A DNA stretch of 64,000 nt, from positions 24,688 to 88,687 of the IMG/VR virus record IMGVR_UViG_3300020057_001229, one strand, 5' to 3'. A model generated the notes under the pieces. That model saw only the letters and a list, made by a program, of their open reading frames with translations, was not told where the DNA came from and searched no databases. Of this stretch, positions 7,639 to 32,818 are shown piece after piece (position 1 is the stretch's first letter; each line of letters starts with the position of its first letter). A program made the translations under genes and the position numbers. Source of the stretch: a virus.

Positions 7639-7667
7639 TTGACGAAGAGACCGTACTACGATACGGT
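7639..7667 (+). promoter_or_regulatory. sigma70-like promoter of the tRNA-Pro/Leu operon
   Basis: TTGACG-N17-TACGGT; leader ATG starts 7 nt after the -10 box (leaderless). Confidence 0.6.
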
Positions 7668-7673
7668 TAATTT

Positions 7674-7727
7674 ATGCAATACTTTCTCCCTCCATTGCTA
7701 CCCCTCCTGACCAAGCTCTTACCGTAA
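7674..7727 (+). promoter_or_regulatory. Leu/Pro-sensing leader peptide MQYFLPPLLPLLTKLLP
   Basis: 7 Leu (CTC, TTG, CTA, CTG, TTA) and 4 Pro (all four codons) in 17 codons, upstream of tRNA-Pro and four tRNA-Leu. Confidence 0.78.
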
Positions 7728-10072: not shown

Positions 10073-10153
10073 ATTTTTTATCCGAAGTATCAAGGCGCTC
10101 CGTTTTAGGCTAGACTCTATACGGAATTGCCCTCTCATACAAAGGTTTTAAAA

Positions 10154-22874: not shown

Positions 22875-25800
22875 ATGTCCTATTTGAAACGAGTCAACGA
22901 AGTTCTTGCTTGGGGTAACAACTGGTATTTTCACGAGCCTACTGATCCAGATGAAAAGAAGGATCAAACAGACGAGTGGACCAAGGAGCCTTTGCAGTCG
23001 ATTAAACGTCCTTTAGGTAAGTACGCGAAGACGGGCAAGCTCTTCGACGAAGACGCCAACTACACTAGGTGGGACCACGACAAAAACGACAGCGAACGTA
23101 AGGCAATGATGGTCGAAGCTCCTAACTCGGCTGCCGTAGAAGAGGCTCATAAGAAAGCAGCCACTAAGTCTCGTAAGCGTAGTGACCGCTATATCGCTAT
23201 CAAGAAAATCCAAGATCAGAAATTCTTGAAGGACATGGTGCTTGATAGTAGCGTCCACGAAGATCTTCGGTCTGCTGCTGCCACACGCATCAAAGACGAG
23301 AAAGACATCGAAGATCTCTTCCTTAAGCGCGTAGAGGGTGACTCAAGCTTTCCTGTTTCGACGCTTGTAGATTTCTTAAAGAACGAAGCTTTCATCATCA
23401 AGAATTTCGACAAGATCAAGAAGGCAGATGCTCTTCTTCATGTCAACGACGAGAAGCTTTTGACTGAACTACTGCTCGCAAATGCTGACCTCAGAGAGCA
23501 CTCCTCCGACGTTCGTAGAATTCTCGACAAGATCAACGACCAGAAGCTTATCTCCAAACTGGCTTTAGACACTAAGAACGGCGACGACCAACAGTACCGC
23601 GAGTTTCTCGCCGTAAAAAGCGACGACAAGAAAGCCTTAGAGCATCTCGCCGAACTAAAGATCGAGCGTGATCCAGCTCGCCACTACTACCACAGTGAGC
23701 CAGTTAACCATGCTGCGTCAGTAGCCTTGTTTAAGCTCAAAGACAAGAATCTCGCCAAGAAAGCCTTAGACGACTCTAACACTACCTACTTAGAAAAGCA
23801 GGTAGCGCTCTCCGTTCTTGAAGATGAAAACGAGTTCAAGAAAGTTGTCACTGACGCTGTCAAAGACGCCAGAAGGAAAAAAGCTGCCCGCGATAACGAC
23901 AGCGGCAATGACGAAGACGAAAACATCGACGATGCAGGAATCGAATTTGACGATGAAGACAACTTAGACATGCCTTCGTTCAAAACAGGTTATAACCACT
24001 ACAGAGGTGGTGAGCGTAACGAGCTTGTCAATTTTGCTTTGAGCAACATTAAAGACCAAGACTTCCTCAAGAAGGTTCTCCCTACGAGCCCTGACTTTTG
24101 GGATCTGGTTAAAGACCAAAAGTGGAAAGAAGAAATTTTCAAGACGAAAAAGGCAGAAGACGGCTCAGCGCCTGTCGAATATTTGAGCAAAGTAGGCGAC
24201 GAAAAATTCATCATGAAAGAGATTATCGACGCTCTAAAACGTGGCTCTAGCCGTTGGATTATCGACGCCATCAAAGAAGTCCACGATCAACCCTTCTTGA
24301 AAATCCTCTATGGGAAAATGGATCCTAAGAAAGAAGGCAGCTCCCTTCGTAAGGTCATCGTCGAAAACATCACAGACTCTGAATTTCTACTCAAGATCTA
24401 CAAAAGCGACAAGTCTACTGACGTTCGGGAAGCTGCCTTCAAGCACTTAGAAGATCCAGAAGCACTCTTCAAAATGTTGATGAAAGAGCGCAGCAAGAGT
24501 AACCGCCACACACTCATTTGGAAGCTTAGAAAGAACCCTGAGTGGATTGCCAAATATCTAGCTGAAGACTTCGACGACTCAGACACGCACTCTTACGGTA
24601 CTGGTAAATTAGACGCAGCTACAGCCAAAAAGATCTTGAGCGGCGATATCAAAGGTCCCCACATTAGTAGTCTTGATATGAAGAAGTTTACTGAAATTTT
24701 CAAAGACGATCAGCCAACTCTTATCAAGATGCACAACCGCAACGACCGTTTTTCTGGAAGCGCCGTAGACTACATCACCGACGAAGACTTCATTATGGAG
24801 AATGTCGGCGCAGAGAATATGGCTTGGGAAATTGTCGAGAAGCTAAAGAAGCCCGCTAACATTGCCAAGATTGCTATAGAAAATAGAGATTCTACTGTTG
24901 CAATGCGCGCGTTCCACAATCTTAAGAATCCCCCTATCGAAATTTACAACGAGATCGCCGTCAAAGCGAAAGCTGCTGACGTCCGTAAGGCAGCCGTGCC
25001 TTATGTCACCGACGACAAAGTGCTGAAGAACATTCTACTTTTCGACAAAGATATCGGTACCGTCGTACTTCCCCACTTCAAAGGTGACCTCAAGACCTTG
25101 CAAGAAGCTCTTCTTAAGGCAAAAGATCCTGGAGTGCTCAAAGCCCTCGCAGGGCGTATCAAAGACGACGCGACGTTGAAAGCCTTCGTCCTGAAGGCAA
25201 CCAACCCCGAAGTTGGAAGCCTCGCTCTCAAAAGAGTCAAGGACAAAGAATTCCTGAAAACTGTCGCTGAGAAAGGCGTTGAACCGACGTTGGTTCGAAC
25301 TGCTCTTACGACGCTAGCTGAAGACGAAGGCAATAAGGCGTTTCTAAGAACGATCTACTTCGAGCGCGACTGGCAGCCGATCTTCGATAAATCGGGTTGG
25401 AGATCGCCGTTCGGTCCCGAAAACCTCAATACTTTGATCGCTCCCTTTCTTAACGCAGACGATATGAAAAGTATCGTCATGAATCCGTCACTACTCAACA
25501 ACTTCCCTCCTGAAAAGTTGGATCTAGACGAGAAGATTGCTGCCGAGGCTCTGTCGCAAAAGCCAGAGATTGTTAAAGGCTATAACAACAACCAGCTTCA
25601 AGTTCTCTTCGACTTAGCTCCAGAGAAAGCAAAAGCGTTCTTCAGTATGAGTTTAGAGAAAATGCTCTTGTACCCGAGCATTCTCTTCGTGGCTGTGCTC
25701 CATCTTGAGCCTGAAGACCTGAACGAAGAAAACATCAGCAGCGTATACGACTGTATAAAGAAGTCGCCGCTGCAAAACCGTATTCCACAAAAAATCATCG

Positions 25801-26024
25801 ACAAGAGTTACGAGCTTGGTGATGAAGTGCAGAAGGCAGCTCTCGCTAACCGAGCTTCTGAAGGCGTCCTGACTCCAGAGCACAAAGACAAAATTGGACG
25901 TGAGCGCTTTAAGTACCGGTCGCCTACTAACCGTAACAAGCACAACCTTCCGACGAAGATCAAAGAGGCGGTCAAACATCCTAAAGAAGAGTTGTTGCGT
26001 CTTCTCGTTCAACTCGCACGCTGA
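22875..26024 (+). CDS. Large helical-repeat (HEAT-like) protein, possibly virion-internal
   Basis: 1049 aa, recurring VR.AA...I.D..FL repeats; N-terminal EVLA motif. Confidence 0.8.
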   Translation: MSYLKRVNEVLAWGNNWYFHEPTDPDEKKDQTDEWTKEPLQSIKRPLGKYAKTGKLFDEDANYTRWDHDKNDSERKAMMVEAPNSAAVEEAHKKAATKSRKRSDRYIAIKKIQDQKFLKDMVLDSSVHEDLRSAAATRIKDEKDIEDLFLKRVEGDSSFPVSTLVDFLKNEAFIIKNFDKIKKADALLHVNDEKLLTELLLANADLREHSSDVRRILDKINDQKLISKLALDTKNGDDQQYREFLAVKSDDKKALEHLAELKIERDPARHYYHSEPVNHAASVALFKLKDKNLAKKALDDSNTTYLEKQVALSVLEDENEFKKVVTDAVKDARRKKAARDNDSGNDEDENIDDAGIEFDDEDNLDMPSFKTGYNHYRGGERNELVNFALSNIKDQDFLKKVLPTSPDFWDLVKDQKWKEEIFKTKKAEDGSAPVEYLSKVGDEKFIMKEIIDALKRGSSRWIIDAIKEVHDQPFLKILYGKMDPKKEGSSLRKVIVENITDSEFLLKIYKSDKSTDVREAAFKHLEDPEALFKMLMKERSKSNRHTLIWKLRKNPEWIAKYLAEDFDDSDTHSYGTGKLDAATAKKILSGDIKGPHISSLDMKKFTEIFKDDQPTLIKMHNRNDRFSGSAVDYITDEDFIMENVGAENMAWEIVEKLKKPANIAKIAIENRDSTVAMRAFHNLKNPPIEIYNEIAVKAKAADVRKAAVPYVTDDKVLKNILLFDKDIGTVVLPHFKGDLKTLQEALLKAKDPGVLKALAGRIKDDATLKAFVLKATNPEVGSLALKRVKDKEFLKTVAEKGVEPTLVRTALTTLAEDEGNKAFLRTIYFERDWQPIFDKSGWRSPFGPENLNTLIAPFLNADDMKSIVMNPSLLNNFPPEKLDLDEKIAAEALSQKPEIVKGYNNNQLQVLFDLAPEKAKAFFSMSLEKMLLYPSILFVAVLHLEPEDLNEENISSVYDCIKKSPLQNRIPQKIIDKSYELGDEVQKAALANRASEGVLTPEHKDKIGRERFKYRSPTNRNKHNLPTKIKEAVKHPKEELLRLLVQLAR

Positions 26025-26036
26025 AAAGGATCTCAA

Positions 26037-26981
26037 ATGTTTTTCACTATCACGGCTGACCCCATTAAGGTCACAGAAGTAAAGAAGGCTCCAAGCCTTC
26101 CTATCAAGCAGATCCTCCTCGACGAGAAAGGCGATAAGGTCTTAGAGAACATCTCAGACGAAGCAGAAGTCTTTTGGGCAGACGTAAAGAAAGCCTTCCC
26201 AGCTCTCGAAGCGCAGCTCAAAGCGATCTTCGGTGGTAAAGACCGTCTCTCTGTTGGCGATCTCAAAAAGAAGATGGGGACTGTAGAAGACGACGAAGCA
26301 GCTCTCTGGCTCTCGCACGTTGACTACAACGACGCATGGCGTATTCAGCGGGAGCTTCCTGAAAACGGCGACGACGATGAAGAAGGCAACAGGGTCGAGT
26401 ATAAACAGATCGCGATCCAGCTCAACATCGGACCTTCACTTGTGAAAGCTATCGACGCTGACCCCATTGCGCAAAAGTTCTTCGAGGCTTACTCAAAAAT
26501 GACTGAAGGTGATCACCTTCACCCTAACCACACCCAGTCGATTGCTTGGGCGCGTGTCTACACCTTGAAAGACAAATGGATCATCGAAGAGCTTCAAAGC
26601 GATATTTGGGGCGCTAGTCTTAAAGCTAATGAAATTCCAGACGATGCTAAAGCCTACGACATCATCAATAAGATGCCGAAAGAGGAACAGTCTGACCTCG
26701 AACGCTTCTTTCATAAGCACTTCATGGATTGGGACAAGAAGCTCATTGCATCCGTCATCAACATGGCGCGTAAGGCAGGTGTCAAAGACATCTATATGTG
26801 GGACGAGTCGATCAAGCAGAAGGTGACACGCTCCAAAAGCAAGCTCGACAAATACTACAAGATCGTACCGCGTGACTTAGGCTTCAAGAAAGATACGCTC
26901 AACATCGCAAACAAAGATCGTCAGGTGTGGCACCGCATTGTCGCCACCTTCAAAGACAGAATTACAGCGAGTCTCAAATGA
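26037..26981 (+). CDS. Polyvalent-protein-type (GNAT-like) domain protein
   Basis: WAR....IIEELQSD motif. Confidence 0.55.
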   Translation: MFFTITADPIKVTEVKKAPSLPIKQILLDEKGDKVLENISDEAEVFWADVKKAFPALEAQLKAIFGGKDRLSVGDLKKKMGTVEDDEAALWLSHVDYNDAWRIQRELPENGDDDEEGNRVEYKQIAIQLNIGPSLVKAIDADPIAQKFFEAYSKMTEGDHLHPNHTQSIAWARVYTLKDKWIIEELQSDIWGASLKANEIPDDAKAYDIINKMPKEEQSDLERFFHKHFMDWDKKLIASVINMARKAGVKDIYMWDESIKQKVTRSKSKLDKYYKIVPRDLGFKKDTLNIANKDRQVWHRIVATFKDRITASLK

Positions 26982-27454
26982 AAATCGTAAAAGAGAAATA
27001 TCAAATTGTAGCCAAAGATTGGTCTAACGAAACATATTGGGCTTGCTTCGCTTTCGAAGACGAGATCCCCGACGACCTCCACTGCACGCACAAGTTCTTC
27101 GGTGAACAAAGCGACGAAAGCCGGGACAAGATCTTGGAGACGATGGATTCTTACTTCGCCAAGAAACCTTACGAGACCATCCAAGCCAAGTTTGACCACG
27201 AAGAGTTCTTCGGGGCTGATAAAGACGTTCGGGTTCTTCGGCTTGAGGACGGCGCTAGCCTCGATCCGTTTCTTCTCGATCTCCGCAAGAAGCTTGACGC
27301 TTTCGCCGACGACAGCTTCCCCGGCTACAAGCCGCACGTCACGACGGACCTCCCCGTAGTCGAGAAGCCTCTGACACGCTACTGTCTTTGTCAGGGTGAC
27401 AAGATTATCAAGGAGTGGAAAGCAATGGAGAAAAAAGCAGCAGCAGCAGCTTAG
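26978..27454 (+). CDS. 2H phosphoesterase (Acb1/gp57B-like)
   Basis: Two HxT motifs LHCTH and YKPHVT; ATGA-coupled start MKIVKEKYQIVA. Confidence 0.82.
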   Translation: MKIVKEKYQIVAKDWSNETYWACFAFEDEIPDDLHCTHKFFGEQSDESRDKILETMDSYFAKKPYETIQAKFDHEEFFGADKDVRVLRLEDGASLDPFLLDLRKKLDAFADDSFPGYKPHVTTDLPVVEKPLTRYCLCQGDKIIKEWKAMEKKAAAAA

Positions 27455-27456
27455 GG

Positions 27457-27485
27457 TTGACGAGTTCTGTGAGAGCTGCTAGGAT
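27457..27485 (+). promoter_or_regulatory. sigma70-like promoter of the tRNA-Asn/Glu operon
   Basis: TTGACG-N17-TAGGAT. Confidence 0.75.
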
Positions 27486-27507
27486 TTGGGTAATGGGAGT
27501 TCACAAA

Positions 27508-27549
27508 ATGTTCCGTTCCGTAAATAACAATAATGAAGAAACAAGCTAG
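27508..27549 (+). promoter_or_regulatory. Asn(/Glu)-sensing leader peptide MFRSVNNNNEETS
   Basis: GGAG RBS; AAT AAC AAT AAT GAA GAA; alternative in-frame ATG at 27493. Confidence 0.85.
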
Positions 27550-27603
27550 GGTCGAAAGTCCTTTCTGGCTTACGACCCGTTTGGTAACCCAAGCGGGTTT
27601 TTT
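27549..27603 (+). terminator. Attenuator: overlapping antiterminator and intrinsic terminator
   Basis: GGGTCG(27549)/CGACCC(27573) competes with ACCCGTTTGG-TAAC-CCAAGCGGGT-TTTTT. Confidence 0.82.
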
Positions 27604-27620
27604 ATTTGTATCGAATTTAT

Positions 27621-27698
27621 TCCGGTGTGGGGGAAGTTGGTAATCCCGCCTCGCTGTTACCGAGGAGCATGTACGTTCGATCCGTACCACCGGAGCCA
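27621..27698 (+). tRNA. tRNA-Asn(GTT)
   Basis: TCCGGTG...CACCGGA-GCCA, loop CTGTTAC. Confidence 0.93.
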
Positions 27699-27946
27699 AC
27701 TTTTTTAAAGGACACCATGAGAACTTTGAACACGCATCCGAATTGTCCGCCGACTGTCAGCAAAAACTCTGACGGTACCTTTACTGCACACGACATCGGC
27801 GAGATGTTGGATTGGCTTGCGGGAAGTCATGGGGACAGCGGTGTCCTGAAAATGTTGGCTCCAATGAAAGCAGTTGATACAGGTCGAGTCAGTGGTGTTG
27901 AGCCTGATGTTAGCGTTAGTTTAGGAAGTTACGAAGTGTGTGTAGT

Positions 27947-28450
27947 TTAAGCAGTTTCTAGCCTTATTTCTTGGTGTATTTCACGGTGGCAGTTAGCGCA
28001 GACCATAACACATTTGTCTAATTCTTGTTTTGTACGTTCCCAAGATCTAGTGTGTCCTCCTTGAGAGGGATTGAAATCTTTCACGTTAGGGTCGAGATGG
28101 TGAAACTCAAGGGCGCTTACGCATTTACTGTAGCCGCAACGAGCACAGGAGCCTCCTTTATATGCAATAGATAGCTGCTTTAACTCTCGTCTTCTGTTCG
28201 TTACTTTGTCTTTACTGTTACAGTTTATCGAGCAGAAACGTGTTTGGGTTCCAGTTAGAGGTTTTTGGCATACGTGCCATGTGCAATAGTTTCCGTTAGG
28301 TAGAGGGTTGCGTTCGTTTAGTGAGCGGGTATTGTGTAAGCCAAAGGGCGAGCAAGTAAGACAAAATTTGCGGTTACACAAATTTCTTTTTTTACCGTCA
28401 ATTACAGTGTTTATTGAGAAATGTGTGTTGCACTTTAGACAAGTAGGCAT
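27947..28450 (-). CDS. HNH endonuclease with N-terminal zinc fingers
   Basis: YKGGSCARCGY...ALEFHHLDP...ELDKCVMVCANCHREIH. Confidence 0.88.
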   Translation of the reverse strand: MPTCLKCNTHFSINTVIDGKKRNLCNRKFCLTCSPFGLHNTRSLNERNPLPNGNYCTWHVCQKPLTGTQTRFCSINCNSKDKVTNRRRELKQLSIAYKGGSCARCGYSKCVSALEFHHLDPNVKDFNPSQGGHTRSWERTKQELDKCVMVCANCHREIHQEIRLETA

Positions 28451-28515
28451 AAGTGTTTTCCGTAGCTAAGAGTTGGGTAACCAAATGGTGTTACTTAATC
28501 TAAGCGACGGTCATG

Positions 28516-28603
28516 GGGAGAGTAGCCTATCGGCACGAGGCAGCGGCTTGTTAAGCCGCCAGTGGACGTAAGTCCGAAGTGGGTTCGATTCCCACCTCTC
28601 CCT
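28516..28603 (+). tRNA. Atypical tRNA with GTT (Asn) anticodon and long variable arm
   Basis: GGGAGAG/CTCTCCC acceptor, GCGGC-TTGTTAA-GCCGC, GGAC-GTAA-GTCC variable arm, TTCGATT; no encoded CCA. Confidence 0.8.
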
Positions 28604-28629
28604 CTTTTTTTCTATAAGGAATTTTCGAT

Positions 28630-28671
28630 ATGCTGTTTCGACTAGAAGAAGAACAAATTAATTCGGGCTGA
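28630..28671 (+). promoter_or_regulatory. Glu-sensing leader peptide MLFRLEEEQINSG
   Basis: AAGGA RBS; GAA GAA GAA; 3' end TCGGGC is complementary to the terminator 5' arm. Confidence 0.85.
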
Positions 28672-28698
28672 GAGAGTCGGTAACGACAACTCTTTTAT

Positions 28699-28725
28699 GC
28701 CCGATCTTTGGATCGGGCTTTTTTT
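28699..28725 (+). terminator. Attenuator terminator directly before the tRNA-Glu genes
   Basis: GCCCGATC-TTTG-GATCGGGC-TTTTTTT. Confidence 0.88.
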
Positions 28726-28729
28726 ATGT

Positions 28730-28804
28730 GGCGTGCTCGTCTAGTGGTTAGGACGCTTGGTTCTCAGCCAGGAAAGAGGGGTTCAATTCCCCTGCACGCC
28801 TCCA
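28730..28804 (+). tRNA. tRNA-Glu(CTC)
   Basis: GGCGTGC...GCACGCC-TCCA, loop TTCTCAG. Confidence 0.92.
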
Positions 28805-28809
28805 AGTTC

Positions 28810-28883
28810 GGCGCATTCGTCTATTGGTAGGATTTCAGAATTTCAATCTGAAGAAAGGGGTTCAATTCCCCTATGCGTCACCA
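28810..28883 (+). tRNA. tRNA-Glu(TTC)
   Basis: GGCGCAT...ATGCGTC-ACCA, loop ATTTCAA. Confidence 0.92.
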
Positions 28884-28937
28884 CTTTACACATTAAAGAT
28901 TCAGTGTCAGCCCAGCACCCGCAAGGAGCTTTGACGC

Positions 28938-29693
28938 ATGAATCGCACTCTCTCCGGTTGGTTATCTGCTCACGAAGCGATATGTCCTTCGTGGAGAGAG
29001 TTTGTGCATCACGACCTACCCTTCGATCACTTAGCACTTAGAACCTTTGCTCACTACGGCGTCGGACAAGACCTCGGTCTAGATGCTCTCAGCTCCATGA
29101 TCTGCCAAGACATGGGTTACAAAGTAGCAGCCGAGTACAACCTAACTGAAAAAAAGGTACGAGCTTACTACCTCGAACGTCAAGACTACCCCAAGATCTT
29201 TATCAGCGAGCTTCTTTGGAGGGAGTTCACTGAAGATGTCCAAAAGGTTTTAGAACGTGTTTTGTCCCACAATGCACCTGTAAGGCTTGCGCCGTGGCTC
29301 TTCAAAGGAACTAGACCTTGGATCAACGCAAGTAAAGAGGACTACGACGCGGTAGCTAAGGAGTCTAGCTACGGCGCTTGGCTGATTGCTTGGGGTTATG
29401 TCGCCAACCACTTCGCCGTTCACCTCAGCATGGACAAGTCGATAGCTCTCTGCAAAAGTCTCAACTTGTCGATGAATGGTGACGGCAAAGTGCAAGGCTC
29501 TAAGAGTGTAGGTTTAGAACAGTGCTCCACGAAGGCGGATCAAATTGTCCACCCACTCTTCGGAGCCTATCTCGACGGCGGCTTCGTTGAGTTCGTTCAG
29601 CGTTGGCAAGACCCCCAAGATCCATTCAAGCTCTACTCCGGCTTCGTAGAGAAGTCGGCAAGCAAAGTCATGGAGTCTACGGGGGAGCGTTGA
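28938..29693 (+). CDS. DUF1338-family (2-oxoadipate dioxygenase/decarboxylase-like, VOC fold) protein
   Basis: DHLALRT, PKIFISEL, S.YGAW, NHF, LEQ.ST.AD, FVEF..R, GF...A..VMEST. Confidence 0.8.
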   Translation: MNRTLSGWLSAHEAICPSWREFVHHDLPFDHLALRTFAHYGVGQDLGLDALSSMICQDMGYKVAAEYNLTEKKVRAYYLERQDYPKIFISELLWREFTEDVQKVLERVLSHNAPVRLAPWLFKGTRPWINASKEDYDAVAKESSYGAWLIAWGYVANHFAVHLSMDKSIALCKSLNLSMNGDGKVQGSKSVGLEQCSTKADQIVHPLFGAYLDGGFVEFVQRWQDPQDPFKLYSGFVEKSASKVMESTGER

Positions 29694-29821
29694 AAAAAGC
29701 TCCCGGTCGATCTCGTCACATTCCCTGTTTATCTCCTGAGTTACGGTCCAATACTCTAAAAGATCTTCGATCACAATTCCCATAAAAAAGCCCCCCTTGG
29801 TAAAGAGAGGCTTTTAGTAGT

Positions 29822-30190
29822 TTACGGCGGCAGATGTCGAGCGACATCAAAGGTCCGCCACGGACATCCGTGAGCTTTAAACCATGACACTAGCTCCGCA
29901 CGCTCGCTGTCGGACGGCTGCGTAGGAAACCTAGAAGGGGGCATCTTTTTCTCTTCGGCTTCGTGAGCAGCTTTGCGAGCAAACGCTGCGGCGTGCTCCG
30001 TCGTGTCGAGGACGACGTTTGCCTTCGGTTCGGGACCGCTATGACATCTAGCACAGTAGGTGGTCAGAAGCTCTTGAGCCCTTGCGTCAGTAACCGCAGC
30101 AGGTGCAGGAGTGTCGTCGTGGTTAGACCCTTTGTCGTCACCACAGCCAGTCAGAAGCAGTGCAAGAGCAAGGCTTGAACGTAATAGTAT
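29822..30190 (-). CDS. c-type cytochrome lipoprotein with ATA start (missing from the ORF track)
   Basis: Lipobox LLTGC, haem motif CARCH, distal MPP and W; G-rich RBS before ATA. Confidence 0.75.
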   Translation of the reverse strand: MLLRSSLALALLLTGCGDDKGSNHDDTPAPAAVTDARAQELLTTYCARCHSGPEPKANVVLDTTEHAAAFARKAAHEAEEKKMPPSRFPTQPSDSERAELVSWFKAHGCPWRTFDVARHLPP

Positions 30191-30274
30191 GGAAATCCCC
30201 CCAATCTAAATTTATAGACAATCGGTTGATTGTAGAGCCCAAAGGTATGGCTATCAAGCTGTCATAATGGCGGG

Positions 30275-30547
30275 TTAAAAACCGCTCACGAGGACGCCGT
30301 TATTTATGTTGAGGAAGTCGAAGAGTTCTGAGTAGGGATAATACCATTCTCTAGTCCCTTCCACTCGGTACTCTTTTAAGTGCTCGTGGTAGAAACGCTC
30401 GTCTTCGATATCACCGTTGTCGATGCGTAAGACTAAAAGTTGCTGCGGGAGGGTAGCTGCGAGGACGGCTATGCGTTTATCAGCATCTTTACTAAAGCCG
30501 ATTTTAACACGGTGAGGTGCCTCTTTTTCTTGAATCACGTAGACCAT
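30275..30547 (-). CDS. GIY-YIG / T5orf172-like protein
   Basis: VYVIQ...VKIGFS...E..H......REWY. Confidence 0.8.
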   Translation of the reverse strand: MVYVIQEKEAPHRVKIGFSKDADKRIAVLAATLPQQLLVLRIDNGDIEDERFYHEHLKEYRVEGTREWYYPYSELFDFLNINNGVLVSGF

Positions 30548-30691
30548 GACTCAAGTCTATCTGGTATTGAATACCAGTACAACTGGGTTTCTTAATTGTC
30601 GTGTTCGCTATTTTGGTGCCCACACTTGTTACAGGTCTCACCTTTGACTAGAAGTCGGTAAAACCAAACACCGATACCTGCACCAACTATA

Positions 30692-30739
30692 TTGACATCC
30701 TCCCCACGGCTAAAGCAGGGGGTTTTACGCTGAGTTTCG
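30692..30739 (-). mobile_element. 48-bp miniature IS200/IS605-type element
   Basis: TTTAT target, palindrome CCCCCTGCTTTAGCCGTGGGG, ends GAGGATGTCAA; near-identical to 59584-59631. Confidence 0.75.
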
Positions 30740-30844
30740 ATAAAAAAGCCGCTTAAGGCGGCTTCTTTTGTAGAGCTTCTTGCTCTCGACTATTTTGATG
30801 GGCACTCATAGCACTCTGTTGTCGGAGCCTTCCTCGGTTTGTAC

Positions 30845-31201
30845 TTAGGGTGTTTTTCGCAACGGTTCATAGACTCTTTTTCCCATGAAGTAGCTCGGCT
30901 GCAAATCGTCGTAAAACAAGTAGGGCTTGTTGACAACGATGTCAACGTAATCTTGTAACTCTAAAGCCCTCACCACCTTCTCTGCCCACTGACTACCACC
31001 CTGCGACCAAACGACAATTACATACTCATCAAGCTCCTTGTGATCTTTGAGAAGTGCGATGTGGTTCGTTGCTTTGAGAAATCTAGTGCCGTCTACGGTG
31101 ACGATATCTCTTTCAGGAGTGTCGTCTTGGATACGGTCGTACAAGATGAGCGTGTCGTCGATATCAAAAAAAATAGTTGGCTTATCTGGTAGAACATTCA
31201 T
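30845..31201 (-). CDS. HAD-like phosphatase
   Basis: FFDIDDTL, VWSQGG, KP...YDD. Confidence 0.8.
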   Translation of the reverse strand: MNVLPDKPTIFFDIDDTLILYDRIQDDTPERDIVTVDGTRFLKATNHIALLKDHKELDEYVIVVWSQGGSQWAEKVVRALELQDYVDIVVNKPYLFYDDLQPSYFMGKRVYEPLRKTP

Positions 31202-31522: not shown

Positions 31523-32818
31523 ATGATCGACTTACATGCCTTAATCACTGATCAAATAGCCGAATTGAAAGGCAACCAGTTCTTTCATGGTGGTTTCATA
31601 CTCGGCGTGTTGGGTGCGATAGCGGCGATCTTTAGGCAAGTTCCACATAAGATCTGGGGTCTTTTTCTCCGCTACATTCTGACGACGGTGGAGTTTACGA
31701 GTCAGGACGATTTCTATGTATGGTTCAGTCTTTGGTTGAACAAGCAAACGTTCATCAAAGACAAAAACCGTCTACGCATTCAAACCAAAGTGCATCGTGA
31801 CGGCGACCACGGTCCACGCTTTGGGGGAGGAGCCGACCAACAGCGAAAGATCGACGTGATTTACACTTTAGGCAACGGCACCCACATCGTCCGCTTCGGC
31901 TCTCTGTTTATGCGTGCGACGAAAGAGAAAGAGCCGCAGACGCAGGGTTCCGCCCACGGCAATATGGCGGCACGAGACATGTTCGTACTCACCATCTTAA
32001 GCTTCCAACGCCGCAGACTAGAACGACTTATTACGTCTATCAGTGACGAGTTCCAGAAAGAGCACACCAACAAAACCACCATTTTGCACTTCAACGTAGG
32101 CTACGACGAGTGGGTGCCGTTGTCGGTGCAGTCCAAGCGGGACATTTCGTGCGTCGTCCTCAAAGAAGGTCAGATGGAAGAAATTTTAATTGACTACGAA
32201 AACTTTCAAAAGGACAAACCGCTTTATGATTCTTTAGGCATCCCCTACCAAAGGGGTTACCTCTTGCAGGGACCGCCAGGTACAGGCAAGACGAGCTTGA
32301 TCTTTGCCTTTGCGAGCTACTACGACTTAGCCGTATGTACGTTGAGCCTCAGTGACTTCGAATCTGACCGTCAGTTTCAAAAAGCGGTCATGGGTATGCC
32401 GGACAAAGCAGCACTCGTCATCGAAGACATCGACTCGTTCTTCAAAGGTAGAGAAACCGTCTCTGAGAAGCCTGCGTTTTTATCGTTCTCAGGCTTGTTG
32501 AATGCCCTCGGCGGACTCGCCGTCAAAGAGGGTAGGGTTCTCTTCGTTACCACCAACAAGCCTGAAGACATCGACCCTGCGTTGACTAGAGCAGGTCGTC
32601 TAGATAAGAGCTTCCTATTGTCCTACGCCGATGCCTACCAAGTCCGCCGTTTGTTCCTGCAAGTCTTTCCAAATGCCGTAAGCCAAGCAGATTCATTTGC
32701 TGAGACGGTCGCCGAGATGAACCTGTCCCCGGCTAAACTTGTGGACTACCTTTTCACAAACAAAAGCAGTCTCTCGGACACACTCCGACTTACGCATAGG
32801 CTCAGCGCTGGAGGATAA
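31523..32818 (+). CDS. BCS1-like AAA+ ATPase
   Basis: N-terminal TM, GIPYQRGYLLQGPPGTGKTS, IEDID, SGLLNAL, TTN, DPALTRAGR. Confidence 0.9.
   Translation: MIDLHALITDQIAELKGNQFFHGGFILGVLGAIAAIFRQVPHKIWGLFLRYILTTVEFTSQDDFYVWFSLWLNKQTFIKDKNRLRIQTKVHRDGDHGPRFGGGADQQRKIDVIYTLGNGTHIVRFGSLFMRATKEKEPQTQGSAHGNMAARDMFVLTILSFQRRRLERLITSISDEFQKEHTNKTTILHFNVGYDEWVPLSVQSKRDISCVVLKEGQMEEILIDYENFQKDKPLYDSLGIPYQRGYLLQGPPGTGKTSLIFAFASYYDLAVCTLSLSDFESDRQFQKAVMGMPDKAALVIEDIDSFFKGRETVSEKPAFLSFSGLLNALGGLAVKEGRVLFVTTNKPEDIDPALTRAGRLDKSFLLSYADAYQVRRLFLQVFPNAVSQADSFAETVAEMNLSPAKLVDYLFTNKSSLSDTLRLTHRLSAGG

What the first reader, a model, noticed from the sequence alone, without database searches (positions are those of the whole stretch)
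27457..27698. Complete Asn attenuator before tRNA-Asn
Order on the sequence: promoter TTGACG-N17-TAGGAT, GGAG RBS, leader MFRSVNNNNEETS*, antiterminator arm GGGTCG starting at the stop codon and pairing with CGACCC, which overlaps the terminator ACCCGTTTGG/CCAAGCGGGT-U run, then tRNA-Asn 18 nt later. A ribosome at the stop would mask the antiterminator arm (termination); one stalled at NNNN would leave it free (read-through). The EE codons match the Glu tRNAs further down the same strand.
Basis: partly seen in the sequence, partly recalled or inferred. Interest (0 to 1): 0.9.

Follow-up and report, generated by a model that had tools for sequence, protein, structure and literature searches.

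The report
Codon-sensing switches gating phage tRNA genes
In this uncultured phage, a tiny gene made of four asparagine codons sits in front of a switchable transcription stop and a tRNA-Asn gene, and a twin with glutamate codons guards two tRNA-Glu genes, so the phage probably makes these tRNAs only when ribosomes read those codons slowly.

Summary
Observation confirmed. Window 27457-27698 holds, in order:
- a sigma-70-like promoter with an extended -10;
- a GGGAG ribosome-binding site;
- a 13-codon ORF, MFRSVNNNNEETS (27508-27549);
- an antiterminator hairpin (27549-27578, extendable to 27542-27583) whose 5' arm begins in the stop codon;
- an overlapping intrinsic terminator (27574-27599 plus U-run);
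- 21 nt further on, a clean-cloverleaf tRNA-Asn(GTT).

A second cassette has the same plan (13 codons, run from codon 6: MLFRLEEEQINSG) and gates two tRNA-Glu genes 1 kb downstream. A Leu/Pro-rich mini-ORF heads the tRNA-Pro/Leu unit.

In the 88.7-kb record, these two are the only short ORFs with a homo-amino-acid run that are followed by a strong terminator. In folding models, a ribosome at the stop codon abolishes the antiterminator, and one stalled in the run leaves it free.

Best reading (about 0.62): these are trp-type ribosome-mediated attenuators that tie phage tRNA transcription to slow decoding of the cognate codons.

Limits:
- There is no experiment and no RNA data.
- The energetic margins are small.
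- The one diverged relative keeps both hairpins, but its leader could not be read.

This scan's earlier AI notes report the same design in other phages, and I re-checked phiCbK myself. Ten literature searches found no published account.

The parts
27457..27485 (+). Sigma-70-like promoter: TTGACG, 17-nt spacer, TAGGAT, with TG at 27477-78 (extended -10). Expected start near 27492.
   Evidence: TTGACN-N16-18-TANNNT occurs 12 times in the 88.7-kb record; 3 lie within 200 nt upstream of tRNA genes and a fourth heads the Pro/Leu unit.
27495..27499 (+). Shine-Dalgarno GGGAG, 8 nt before the ATG.
   Evidence: Read from the sequence.
27508..27549 (+). Leader ORF MFRSVNNNNEETS*. Regulatory Asn codons AAT AAC AAT AAT at 27523-27534, GAA GAA at 27535-27540, TAG at 27547-49.
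   Evidence: Three of the four Asn codons are AAT, the rarer Asn codon in this phage's genes (AAT 247, AAC 647).
27543..27572 (+). Alternative hairpin A (AAGCUAG/CUGGCUU, -9.2 kcal/mol). Candidate anti-antiterminator, the '1:2' equivalent.
27549..27578 (+). Antiterminator B: GGGUCG.AAGUC / GGCUU.CGACCC, -14.8 kcal/mol. Extendable to 27542-27583 (-19.7), which covers 10 of the 11 nt of the terminator's 5' arm.
   Evidence: z -2.5; 2 of 300 shuffles as good.
27574..27607 (+). Intrinsic terminator C: 11-bp stem 27574-27599 with loop UAAC (-16.8 kcal/mol), then U6-A-U3.
27621..27698 (+). tRNA-Asn(GTT), 78 nt, CCA encoded, U1-A72 and G73. The gated gene.
   Evidence: ARAGORN cloverleaf; cloverleaf energy -24.4 against an MFE of -26.1. 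Not reported by Rfam RF00005.
27717..27950 (+). 77-aa ORF of no known family, same strand, downstream of tRNA-Asn. Probably in the same transcription unit.
27947..28450 (-). HNH endonuclease gene. A mobile insertion that splits the tRNA operon.
   Evidence: PHROG/Pfam HNH hits. Absent from the related strain in run X5, which joins 27914 to 28455.
28516..28604 (+). Class-II-bodied tRNA (long variable arm) with a GTT anticodon, directly upstream of the Glu leader.
   Evidence: (52.6 bits).
28616..28671 (+). Second cassette: SD AAGGA 28616-20 and leader ORF 28630-28671, MLFRLEEEQINSG*. GAA x3 at 28645-53; TGA at 28669-71.
28663..28704 (+). Glu antiterminator B' (-22.3 kcal/mol). The leader's last two codons, UCGGGC, copy the terminator's 3' arm and pair with its 5' arm GCCCGA.
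   Evidence: z -4.1; 0 of 300 shuffles.
28699..28725 (+). Glu terminator C': GCCCGAUC-UUUG-GAUCGGGC (-14.6 kcal/mol) plus U7.
   Evidence: In run X5, 28705 T>G together with 28712 A>C keeps the pair, and all four loop bases differ.
28730..28883 (+). tRNA-Glu(CTC) 28730-28804 and tRNA-Glu(TTC) 28810-28883. The gated genes of the second cassette.
7639..7727 (+). Related unit: promoter-like TTGACG..TACGGT 7639-67 and ORF 7674-7727, MQYFLPPLLPLLTKLLP*, ahead of tRNA-Pro (7959) and four tRNA-Leu genes. No canonical terminator.
   Evidence: L+P make up 11 of 16 residues, binomial 6e-7.

Best explanation
These are two ribosome-mediated (leader-peptide) transcription attenuators of the trp/his type, but the genes they gate are the phage's own tRNA genes.

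Asn unit:
1. Transcription starts at the sigma-70-like promoter (27457-85), and a ribosome loads on the 13-codon leader.
2. If Asn-tRNA is plentiful, the ribosome reaches TAG (27547-49) while RNA polymerase is still making the terminator.
3. The ribosome then covers GGGUCG (27549-54), so the antiterminator cannot form.
4. The terminator (27574-99 plus U-run) folds and releases a transcript of about 113 nt before tRNA-Asn.
5. If the ribosome lingers on the four AAY codons (or the GAA GAA behind them), the antiterminator (27549-78, extendable to 27542-83) folds first.
6. It ties up the G+C-rich foot of the terminator, and polymerase reads into tRNA-Asn(GTT) and whatever follows.

Glu unit (28616-28729): the logic is the same. 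The leader's last two codons, UCGGGC, are a copy of the terminator's 3' arm.

The net effect is a negative-feedback loop: each tRNA is made when decoding of its own codons is slow.

Shown: the sequence anatomy, the alternative folds, their dependence on modelled ribosome position, and the non-random association with cognate tRNAs.

Inferred: translation of the leaders, termination, and the response to charged tRNA.
For: 1. Anatomy is complete and correctly ordered in both cassettes.

2. Specificity. Of 1100 short ATG ORFs, 118 carry a homo-run of 3 or more. Only these 2 loci are followed by one of the 9 strict terminators in the record. Each terminator ends 11-22 nt before a tRNA of the same amino acid as the run. 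The per-position chance of NNNN is 2.6e-6 and of EEE 2.3e-4.

3. Shared plan without sequence homology. Both leaders are 13 codons long, and the run starts at codon 6 in each.

4. Folds.
- The antiterminator is the best fold of the nascent RNA until the terminator's 3' arm is finished.
- A modelled ribosome at the stop codon leaves only the terminator.
- A ribosome on the run codons leaves the antiterminator.
- At equilibrium, P(antiterminator) for Asn is 0.00 at the stop codon and 0.67 with the ribosome front near 27547.

5. Sequestration of the terminator's 5' arm exceeds shuffled controls. Asn: 10 of 11 nt, z -2.5, 2 of 300 shuffles. Glu: 8 of 8 nt, z -4.1, 0 of 300.

6. Variation in a related strain (run X5).
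- The Glu terminator keeps its stem through a compensatory pair change, while all 4 loop bases and the flanks change.
- No paired base of B' changes.
- The Asn block 27542-27629 is near-identical (one A inserted in a hairpin loop), while the 192 nt before it are replaced by unlike sequence.

7. There is no promoter-like site between either terminator and its tRNA. The promoter motif is concentrated at the heads of tRNA units: 4 of 12 genome-wide matches.

8. A third mini-ORF, MQYFLPPLLPLLTKLLP, precedes tRNA-Pro and four tRNA-Leu genes.

9. The same architecture occurs three times in the unrelated phage phiCbK: promoter, mini-ORF, terminator, tRNA block, with a leader-embedded copy of the terminator's 3' arm.

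10. The leader uses AAT in 3 of its 4 Asn codons, although the phage's genes prefer AAC 647 to 247.
Against: - Nothing is experimental.
- At equilibrium on the full-length RNA the terminator wins in most states. Asn P(terminator) is 0.85 with no ribosome or with the A site at N6-N8. Glu P(antiterminator) never exceeds 0.28. Read-through therefore needs kinetic trapping.
- The findpath barriers from antiterminator to terminator are low: 2.4 and 4.6 kcal/mol.
- The core Asn antiterminator shares only 5 nt with the terminator.
- In the one diverged relative (X5), the stretch holding the promoter and leader codons 1-11 (27350-27541) does not align at 80% and could not be read. Conservation of the Asn run is therefore unknown.
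- No other relatives could be fetched.
- A generic scan for 'four AAY, then a T-run, then an Asn anticodon loop' gave 0 of 117 loci with a tRNA-Asn at the match.
- The Glu run is only three codons; its composition test alone gives P=0.033.
- Rfam's tRNA model does not report the tRNA-Asn.
Confidence: 0.62

Rival explanations
1. The leaders are translated and do control the terminators, but they report general translation capacity rather than one amino acid. Any shortage of ribosomes or any elongation block lets the antiterminator form and switches the tRNA genes on. Alternatively, the output runs partly through something other than hairpin competition, such as RNA processing or stability, or Rho.
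For: - With no ribosome, the nascent-RNA fold is the antiterminator in both cassettes. An untranslated leader would therefore read through kinetically.
- The Pro/Leu and Arg units have cognate-rich mini-ORFs but no canonical terminator, so some other output must exist there.
- In Anabaena, a tRNA operon is induced by general translational stress (abstract of PMC10272220).
Against: - The codon runs match the downstream tRNA in both cassettes and in the Pro/Leu unit. A general sensor would not need that.
- At equilibrium the no-ribosome state favours termination (0.85 Asn, 0.72 Glu).
Confidence: 0.2
2. The terminators are ordinary, constitutive ends or insulators of upstream transcription. The tRNAs are made by leaky read-through. 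The short ORFs are untranslated chance frames.
For: - Terminator hairpins are conserved whether or not they are conditional. The X5 compensatory change proves only the hairpin.
- The terminator is thermodynamically favoured in most modelled states, and the refolding barriers are low.
- The leader region of the relative is not conserved at 80%.
Against: - It requires two independent coincidences of a cognate codon run, a ribosome-binding site at the right spacing, and a stop codon sitting on the 5' arm of a hairpin that sequesters the terminator.
- There is also a third cognate-rich ORF.
- A strong terminator 11-22 nt before a tRNA with no promoter in between would otherwise simply silence the tRNA.
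Confidence: 0.12
3. An RNA-only switch senses tRNA directly, like a T-box, with the codon run acting as a specifier.
For: The element lies before translation-related genes and has terminator/antiterminator alternatives.
Against: - There is no T-box or other riboswitch match in Rfam at the gathering score or at E<=1 to 10.
- The leader RNA is only about 113 nt. From memory, that is too short for the tRNA-binding Stem I, and no conserved T-box sequence is apparent.
- The runs lie inside a ribosome-binding-site-led ORF.
Confidence: 0.02

Closest known systems
Leader-peptide attenuators of amino-acid biosynthesis operons (trpL, hisL, leuL, pheL, thrL, ilvL). Textbook knowledge, recalled. The abstract of Elf & Ehrenberg 2005 (PMC1183508) was seen in the listing.
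   Same: A short ORF led by a ribosome-binding site, with a run of regulatory codons. An intrinsic terminator overlapped by an antiterminator. The ribosome's position decides which one folds. For the Asn unit there is a possible third hairpin playing the part of '1:2'.
   Different: The regulated genes are tRNA genes, not biosynthetic enzymes, so the loop controls the supply of the adaptor itself. The setting is a phage. The leaders are very compact (13 codons, about 113-nt transcript). The Glu unit has no 1:2 equivalent.
The pheST (pheM leader) attenuator, which controls phenylalanyl-tRNA synthetase in E. coli. Recalled, not checked here.
   Same: Leader-peptide attenuation applied to a component of the translation apparatus for the same amino acid.
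   Different: It controls a synthetase (a protein), not a tRNA, and is cellular rather than viral. The E. coli tRNA-Phe gene pheV itself has a promoter directly in front and no leader.
T-box riboswitches
   Same: They link the state of one tRNA species to read-through of a terminator before translation-related genes.
   Different: A T-box binds uncharged tRNA directly and needs no ribosome. There is no Rfam match here, and here the codons lie in a translatable ORF.
The Anabaena PCC 7120 trn operon, a silent 26-gene tRNA array induced by translational stress (PMC8421152, PMC10272220). I saw the abstracts and the term searches.
   Same: An accessory set of tRNA genes is switched on when translation is impaired.
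   Different: By its title and abstract, control there is by the transcriptional repressor TrcR. Neither paper contains 'attenuat', 'leader' or 'terminator'.
The promoter / mini-ORF / annotated terminator / tRNA-block cassettes of Caulobacter phage phiCbK (JX100813), and the same design in this scan's earlier AI notes on other phages.
   Same: The order of parts is the same. The mini-ORFs are enriched in the amino acids of the tRNAs behind them. A leader-embedded copy of the terminator's 3' arm acts as antiterminator, as in the Glu unit here.
   Different: The phiCbK leaders are 20-45 codons long, mix several amino acids and gate blocks of 2-10 tRNAs. Here each leader carries a run of one amino acid and gates one or two tRNAs of that amino acid. 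There is no sequence similarity. The phiCbK genome paper does not mention attenuation (0 hits for 'attenuat'); its supplementary tables were not seen.

Membership tests
Leader-peptide (ribosome-mediated) transcription attenuator | A short translatable ORF with a ribosome-binding site in the 5' leader | tested here: met
   GGGAG lies 8 nt before ATG 27508, and AAGGA 9 nt before ATG 28630. Both ORFs are 13 codons. Translation itself is not shown.
Leader-peptide (ribosome-mediated) transcription attenuator | A run of regulatory codons for the amino acid tied to the regulated genes | tested here: met
   AAT AAC AAT AAT before tRNA-Asn(GTT), and GAA GAA GAA before tRNA-Glu(CTC) and tRNA-Glu(TTC). 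These are the only 2 run-ORF-plus-terminator loci in the record.
Leader-peptide (ribosome-mediated) transcription attenuator | An intrinsic terminator between the leader ORF and the regulated gene | tested here: met
   An 11-bp stem plus U6 at 27574-27603, and an 8-bp stem plus U7 at 28699-28725.
Leader-peptide (ribosome-mediated) transcription attenuator | An antiterminator that excludes the terminator | tested here: met
   B at 27549-78 (-14.8 kcal/mol) shares 27574-78 with the terminator. B' at 28663-28704 (-22.3) shares 28699-28704. Both exceed shuffled controls.
Leader-peptide (ribosome-mediated) transcription attenuator | A ribosome at the stop codon masks the antiterminator; a ribosome at the regulatory codons does not | tested here: met
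   Tested with modelled footprints (18 nt upstream to 12 or 15 nt downstream of the A-site codon's first base). The footprint size is taken from general knowledge.
Leader-peptide (ribosome-mediated) transcription attenuator | The antiterminator can pre-empt the terminator long enough to matter | tested here: inconclusive
   It is the best fold of the nascent RNA. But the terminator is favoured at equilibrium in most states, and the findpath barriers are only 2.4 and 4.6 kcal/mol.
Leader-peptide (ribosome-mediated) transcription attenuator | A 1:2 (pause / anti-antiterminator) hairpin | tested here: inconclusive
   Asn has a candidate, hairpin A at 27543-72 (-9.2 kcal/mol). Glu has none.
Leader-peptide (ribosome-mediated) transcription attenuator | The regulated genes encode amino-acid biosynthesis enzymes (or a synthetase) | tested here: not met
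   The downstream genes are tRNAs. This is why I class the element as a new variant rather than a plain member.
Leader-peptide (ribosome-mediated) transcription attenuator | Read-through responds to the level of charged cognate tRNA | not testable with these tools
   This needs transcription-translation assays or reporters.
Leader-peptide (ribosome-mediated) transcription attenuator | The leader and alternative hairpins are kept in relatives, with covariation | tested here: inconclusive
   There is only one diverged strain (X5). Both terminators and antiterminators are kept, with one compensatory pair change. The Glu leader is unchanged over the part covered. The Asn leader was not readable.
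T-box riboswitch | Match to the T-box covariance model (tRNA-binding Stem I, specifier loop, T-box sequence) | tested here: not met
   No match at the gathering score or at E<=1 to 10.
PyrR-binding attenuator | Match to Rfam RF00515 at its gathering score | tested here: not met
   18.5 bits against a gathering score of 54, E 2.5. This reflects only the generic hairpin-terminator shape.
Phage tRNA-block leader cassettes (phiCbK type; unpublished as attenuators) | Promoter, mini-ORF enriched in the amino acids of the tRNAs behind it, a terminator directly before the tRNAs, and a leader segment able to pair with the terminator's 5' arm | tested here: met
   Here. In phiCbK. The likeness is one of design only, with no sequence similarity.

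The most novel reading that the evidence does not exclude
The phage carries a modular, one-sensor-per-amino-acid surveillance system for the host's decoding capacity. Each tRNA unit (Asn, Glu, Pro/Leu, perhaps Arg) has its own codon-matched mini-ORF. When a particular host tRNA is depleted, for instance by an anticodon-nuclease defence, or is out-competed by the phage's codon usage, exactly the matching replacement tRNA is switched on. The Asn sensor would be bivalent (Asn plus Glu codons in its effective window). It would also bring on an odd class-II-bodied tRNA with an Asn anticodon. A 2H-phosphoesterase-like RNA-repair-type gene sits immediately upstream. Together this would make the locus a self-regulating counter-defence island.
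Probability: 0.3. Interest if true: 0.9.

Novelty: new variant of a known kind. Interest (0 to 1): 0.8.

Why it matters
As far as I could find, leader-peptide attenuation has been described for amino-acid biosynthesis operons and for a synthetase, but never for tRNA genes (ten searches).

If the reading is right, a virus measures how fast host ribosomes read particular codons and tops up exactly the tRNA that is short. That would answer an open question about why and when phages express their tRNA genes. It would link phage tRNAs to tRNA-targeting host defences. It would also supply very small (about 110 nt) natural parts that sense the decoding of a single codon.

These two cassettes are the cleanest form of the design I have seen: one amino acid, one or two tRNAs, 13 codons. 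That makes them the easiest to test in a cell-free system.

Tried and rejected
Relatives
- Near and protein searches of the phage collection found nothing.
- Single-protein scans of IMG/VR found nothing.
- The upstream 2H-like protein has 11 homologues. The loci reachable through an alignment (L002-L005) have no tRNA and no synteny. The genome collection gave nothing.
- Pattern scans for the Asn terminator found nothing. Scans for the Glu leader (2 chance hits in coding DNA) and for the tRNA-Glu T-arm behind a T-run (1 chance hit) gave no relative.
- Homologues of the 251-aa downstream protein led to two distant loci without nearby tRNAs. One of those records holds a lone tRNA-Ser with no leader.
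- A search with the 82-aa reverse-strand frame across the leader, hoping a gene caller had recorded the relative's version, found nothing.
- Earlier-findings look-ups by place and by sequence found no look-alikes.

Generic test
Eight had any tRNA. None had a tRNA-Asn at the match. The result is uninformative, because AT-rich chance matches saturate it.

RNA evidence
- No RNA holder is listed. All six runs are DNA contigs of microbial-mat or unlabelled metagenomes, so nothing can be said about expression.

Other ideas rejected
- T-box or other known riboswitch: no Rfam match.
- A promoter between terminator and tRNA: none found.
- The two cassettes as sequence paralogues: not evident.
- The tRNA-Arg unit as a third terminator-type attenuator: it has a hairpin but no U-run.
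- My vague memory that E. coli tRNA-Phe genes have an attenuator: pheV has none.
- Covariation among phiCbK relatives: the Rogue and Ccr10 leaders are 94% identical to phiCbK's and still rich in the same residues, so the comparison says nothing.

Tools not used or closed
- Complex prediction, structure prediction, the atlas search and the representative-protein search were not used. No protein question needed them.
- Supplementary files of papers are closed. The supplementary gene tables of the phiCbK paper might comment on its mini-ORFs.
Full report
**What the window is.** The window is bases 24688-88687 of an 88,687-b IMG/VR virus record. The record is labelled provirus and is about 32% complete by CheckV. 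It is 48% G+C.

ARAGORN finds 15 tRNA genes in the record, 10 of them in the window. Few proteins match phage families, and nothing like it is in the phage collection. DNA runs that hold it are microbial-mat metagenomes.

**The observation.**
- TTGACG (27457-62), 17 nt, TAGGAT (27480-85) preceded by TG. This is the only + strand promoter-like site in 25000-31000.
- GGGAG at 27495-99.
- ATG at 27508 opening MFRSVNNNNEETS*. The codons AAT AAC AAT AAT lie at 27523-34 and TAG at 27547-49.
- GGGTCG at 27549-54, whose first base is the last base of the stop codon, complementary to CGACCC at 27573-78.
- A terminator of 11 pairs at 27574-27599 followed by TTTTTTATTT.
- tRNA-Asn(GTT) at 27621-27698.

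ARAGORN's cloverleaf is canonical: stems of 7, 4, 5 and 5 pairs, U8, GG in the D loop, U33, T loop TTCGATC, G73 and an encoded CCA. Its energy is -24.4 kcal/mol against an MFE of -26.1.

Unexplained: Rfam's tRNA model reports neither this gene nor the tRNA-Met, even at E<=10. It does find the other 13.

**A second and a third unit.** About 1 kb downstream on the same strand, directly after an odd 89-nt tRNA (long variable arm, GTT anticodon; 28516-28604), the plan repeats.
- AAGGA at 28616-20.
- ATG at 28630 opening MLFRLEEEQINSG*, with GAA GAA GAA at 28645-53 and TGA at 28669-71.
- A terminator GCCCGATC-TTTG-GATCGGGC plus T7 at 28699-28725.
- Four nt later, tRNA-Glu(CTC), then tRNA-Glu(TTC).

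The leader's last two codons, TCGGGC, are a copy of the terminator's 3' arm and pair with its 5' arm. Both leaders have 13 codons, and in both the run begins at codon 6. The two cassettes are not recognisably alike in sequence.

A third mini-ORF, MQYFLPPLLPLLTKLLP* (7674-7727), follows a promoter-like site (7639-67). It precedes tRNA-Pro and four tRNA-Leu genes but has no canonical terminator. A fourth, MFFLSTSSRSFSKAKRRRV*, precedes tRNA-Arg(TCT) with a hairpin but no U-run.

**Is it more than chance?**
- In the whole record, 1100 ATG ORFs have 6-35 codons, and 118 of them hold a run of three or more identical residues.
- My strict terminator finder gives 9 sites on both strands. It misses stems that run into the U-tract, such as the one before tRNA-Met.
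- Only two loci combine a run-ORF with a terminator within 70 nt. These are the Asn and Glu cassettes, each ending 11-22 nt before a tRNA of the run's own amino acid.
- From the phage's own codon frequencies, NNNN has probability 2.6e-6 per position and EEE 2.3e-4.
- Composition tests give P=0.001 (Asn), 0.033 (Glu), 6e-7 (Leu+Pro) and 0.011 (Arg).
- The motif TTGACN-N16-18-TANNNT occurs 12 times in the record. Three lie within 200 nt upstream of tRNA genes (Met, Arg, Asn) and a fourth heads the Pro/Leu unit.

**Folds: the Asn unit.** Three hairpins compete.
- A: 27543-72, -9.2 kcal/mol.
- B, the antiterminator: 27549-78, -14.8 kcal/mol. It can extend to 27542-83 (-19.7), which ties up 10 of the 11 bases of the terminator's 5' arm.
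- C, the terminator: 27574-99, -16.8 kcal/mol.

In growing transcripts, B is the best fold from the moment its 3' arm exists until the terminator's 3' arm is nearly complete. With B in place, only a 6-bp remnant of the terminator can form, separated from the U-run. A ribosome modelled at the stop codon leaves no B at all, only C.

Equilibrium on the full-length RNA:

| Ribosome position | P(antiterminator B) |
|---|---|
| No ribosome, or A site at N6-N8 | 0.10 (hairpin A forms) |
| Front edge near 27547 (A site at N9 or E10) | 0.67 |
| A site at E11 | 0.43 |
| Last two codons or stop codon | 0.00 |

The unit therefore behaves like a classical 1:2 / 2:3 / 3:4 attenuator.

**Folds: the Glu unit.** B' (28663-28704) is a long stem of -22.3 kcal/mol, against -14.6 for the terminator. 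B' is the best nascent fold. It is abolished by a ribosome at the stop codon and untouched by one at the first two GAA codons. At equilibrium its probability is at most 0.28.

**Controls and cautions on the folds.**
- Sequestration of the terminator arm beats shuffles of the upstream 60 nt. Asn: z -2.5, 2 of 300 shuffles. Glu: z -4.1, 0 of 300. Among the other 7 strict terminators, one (31960-31933, minus strand, inside a long ORF) reaches a similar figure.
- The computed refolding barriers are low, 2.4 and 4.6 kcal/mol. Whether the antiterminators hold long enough is therefore not settled by computation.

**Variation in nature.** Four other metagenome runs were laid on 27300-29000. Three carry essentially the same sequence. 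One (X5) carries a diverged strain.
- The HNH endonuclease gene (27947-28450, minus strand) is missing: 27914 joins 28455. It is therefore a mobile insertion, and the Asn unit, the 77-aa ORF, the class-II tRNA and the Glu unit were originally contiguous.
- In the Glu terminator, 28705 T>G and 28712 A>C convert a U-A pair to G-C. All four loop bases change, the bulged base 28698 changes, and the flanks and the start of the tRNA change.
- No paired base of B' changes, and 28651-28697 is unchanged.
- For the Asn unit, 27542-27629 is almost identical, with one A inserted in the loop of B. 27542 is exactly the 5' end of the extended antiterminator.
- The 192 nt before that (the end of the upstream gene, the promoter and leader codons 1-11) are replaced by 184 unlike letters that the tool does not show.

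So the hairpins are under selection.

**Elsewhere.** No further relatives could be fetched (see Tried and rejected).

This scan's earlier AI notes describe 'leader-peptide attenuators of phage tRNA arrays' in several other phages, including Caulobacter phages. These are leads, not evidence, so I checked phiCbK (JX100813) myself.
- Its GenBank record annotates rho-independent terminators directly before three tRNA blocks.
- Each terminator is preceded by a small ORF, two of them behind TTGACA-type promoters.
  - The 45-aa gp083 is rich in S, L, P, K and A. It precedes Pro, Pro, Lys, Lys, Leu x3, Ala and Ser x2.
  - A 32-aa ORF containing F, V, I and Q precedes Phe, Val, Ile, Ile, Val, Gln, Gln.
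  - A 20-aa ORF precedes Glu and Asp.
- In the 32-aa unit, a leader segment that copies the terminator's 3' arm pairs with its 5' arm in the nascent fold. The terminator forms in the full fold.

The design therefore recurs in an unrelated, cultured phage. The phiCbK genome paper has no occurrence of 'attenuat' (passages seen, supplements not).

**Literature.** Ten full-text searches found no description of attenuation of tRNA genes. The nearest is the Anabaena trn operon, induced by translational stress through the repressor TrcR. For that I saw the abstracts and term searches of PMC8421152 and PMC10272220.

E. coli pheV has a promoter directly before the tRNA and no leader.

**Verdict.** The anatomy is real and non-random. 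The most likely mechanism is trp-style ribosome-mediated attenuation applied to tRNA genes (confidence 0.62).

The main alternatives:
- a less specific translation-status sensor, or a different output (0.20);
- constitutive terminators with fortuitous ORFs (0.12).

It is a new variant of a known kind. It has been seen before by this scan on other DNA, but not, as far as I could find, in print.

Noticed in passing
window 28516-28604: An 89-nt tRNA with a long variable arm (class-II body) but the Asn anticodon GTT, a U at the discriminator position and no encoded CCA. Rfam scores it at 52.6 bits. It lies between the Asn and Glu units, so it would be under the Asn switch. Its charging identity is unknown.
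   Followed up: partly
window 27947-28450 (minus strand): An HNH endonuclease gene is inserted in the middle of the tRNA operon. A related strain (run X5) lacks exactly 27915-28454, so it is a recent mobile insertion.
   Followed up: partly
window 7639-7727: A promoter-like site is followed 7 nt later by ATG (no Shine-Dalgarno) opening MQYFLPPLLPLLTKLLP*. This lies ahead of a small zinc-ribbon-like ORF, tRNA-Pro and four tRNA-Leu genes. The composition match is strong (11 of 16 residues L or P), but there is no canonical terminator.
   Followed up: partly
window 3814-3567 (minus strand): Promoter TTGACA-18-TATACT, then the ORF MFFLSTSSRSFSKAKRRRV* (3753-3694), then a hairpin overlapping the Arg codons but no U-run, then tRNA-Arg(TCT).
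   Followed up: partly
window 27621-27698, and genome 15729-15805 (outside the window): Rfam's tRNA model reports neither the tRNA-Asn nor the tRNA-Met that ARAGORN calls, even at E<=10. The Asn cloverleaf looks canonical. The Met one has an A1/A72 mismatch and an extra base. Unexplained.
   Followed up: partly
window 26978-27454: The gene just upstream of the promoter has two H-x-T motifs (HCTH, HVTT). It has 11 homologues, one of which carries PF13563 (2'-5' RNA ligase / 2H phosphoesterase superfamily). It is a possible RNA-repair enzyme next to the tRNA genes.
   Followed up: partly
window 27700-27705, 28605-28611 and 10075-10080: Runs of six or seven T follow directly after several tRNA genes (tRNA-Asn, the class-II tRNA, tRNA-Leu(TAA)) without a separate hairpin. 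The tRNA acceptor stem may double as a terminator stem.
   Followed up: no
   Followed up: no
L126 (phiCbK JX100813, 47000-53000): Three promoter / mini-ORF / annotated terminator / tRNA-block cassettes. ARAGORN also calls an unannotated, atypical tRNA-Ala(TGC) and tRNA-Ile(AAT) in the gaps of the blocks.
   Followed up: partly
window 31933-31960 (minus strand): A terminator-like hairpin inside the 431-aa ORF. Its 5' arm is also strongly sequestered by upstream sequence (9 of 10 nt, z -2.4). This is probably a coding-region coincidence.
   Followed up: no
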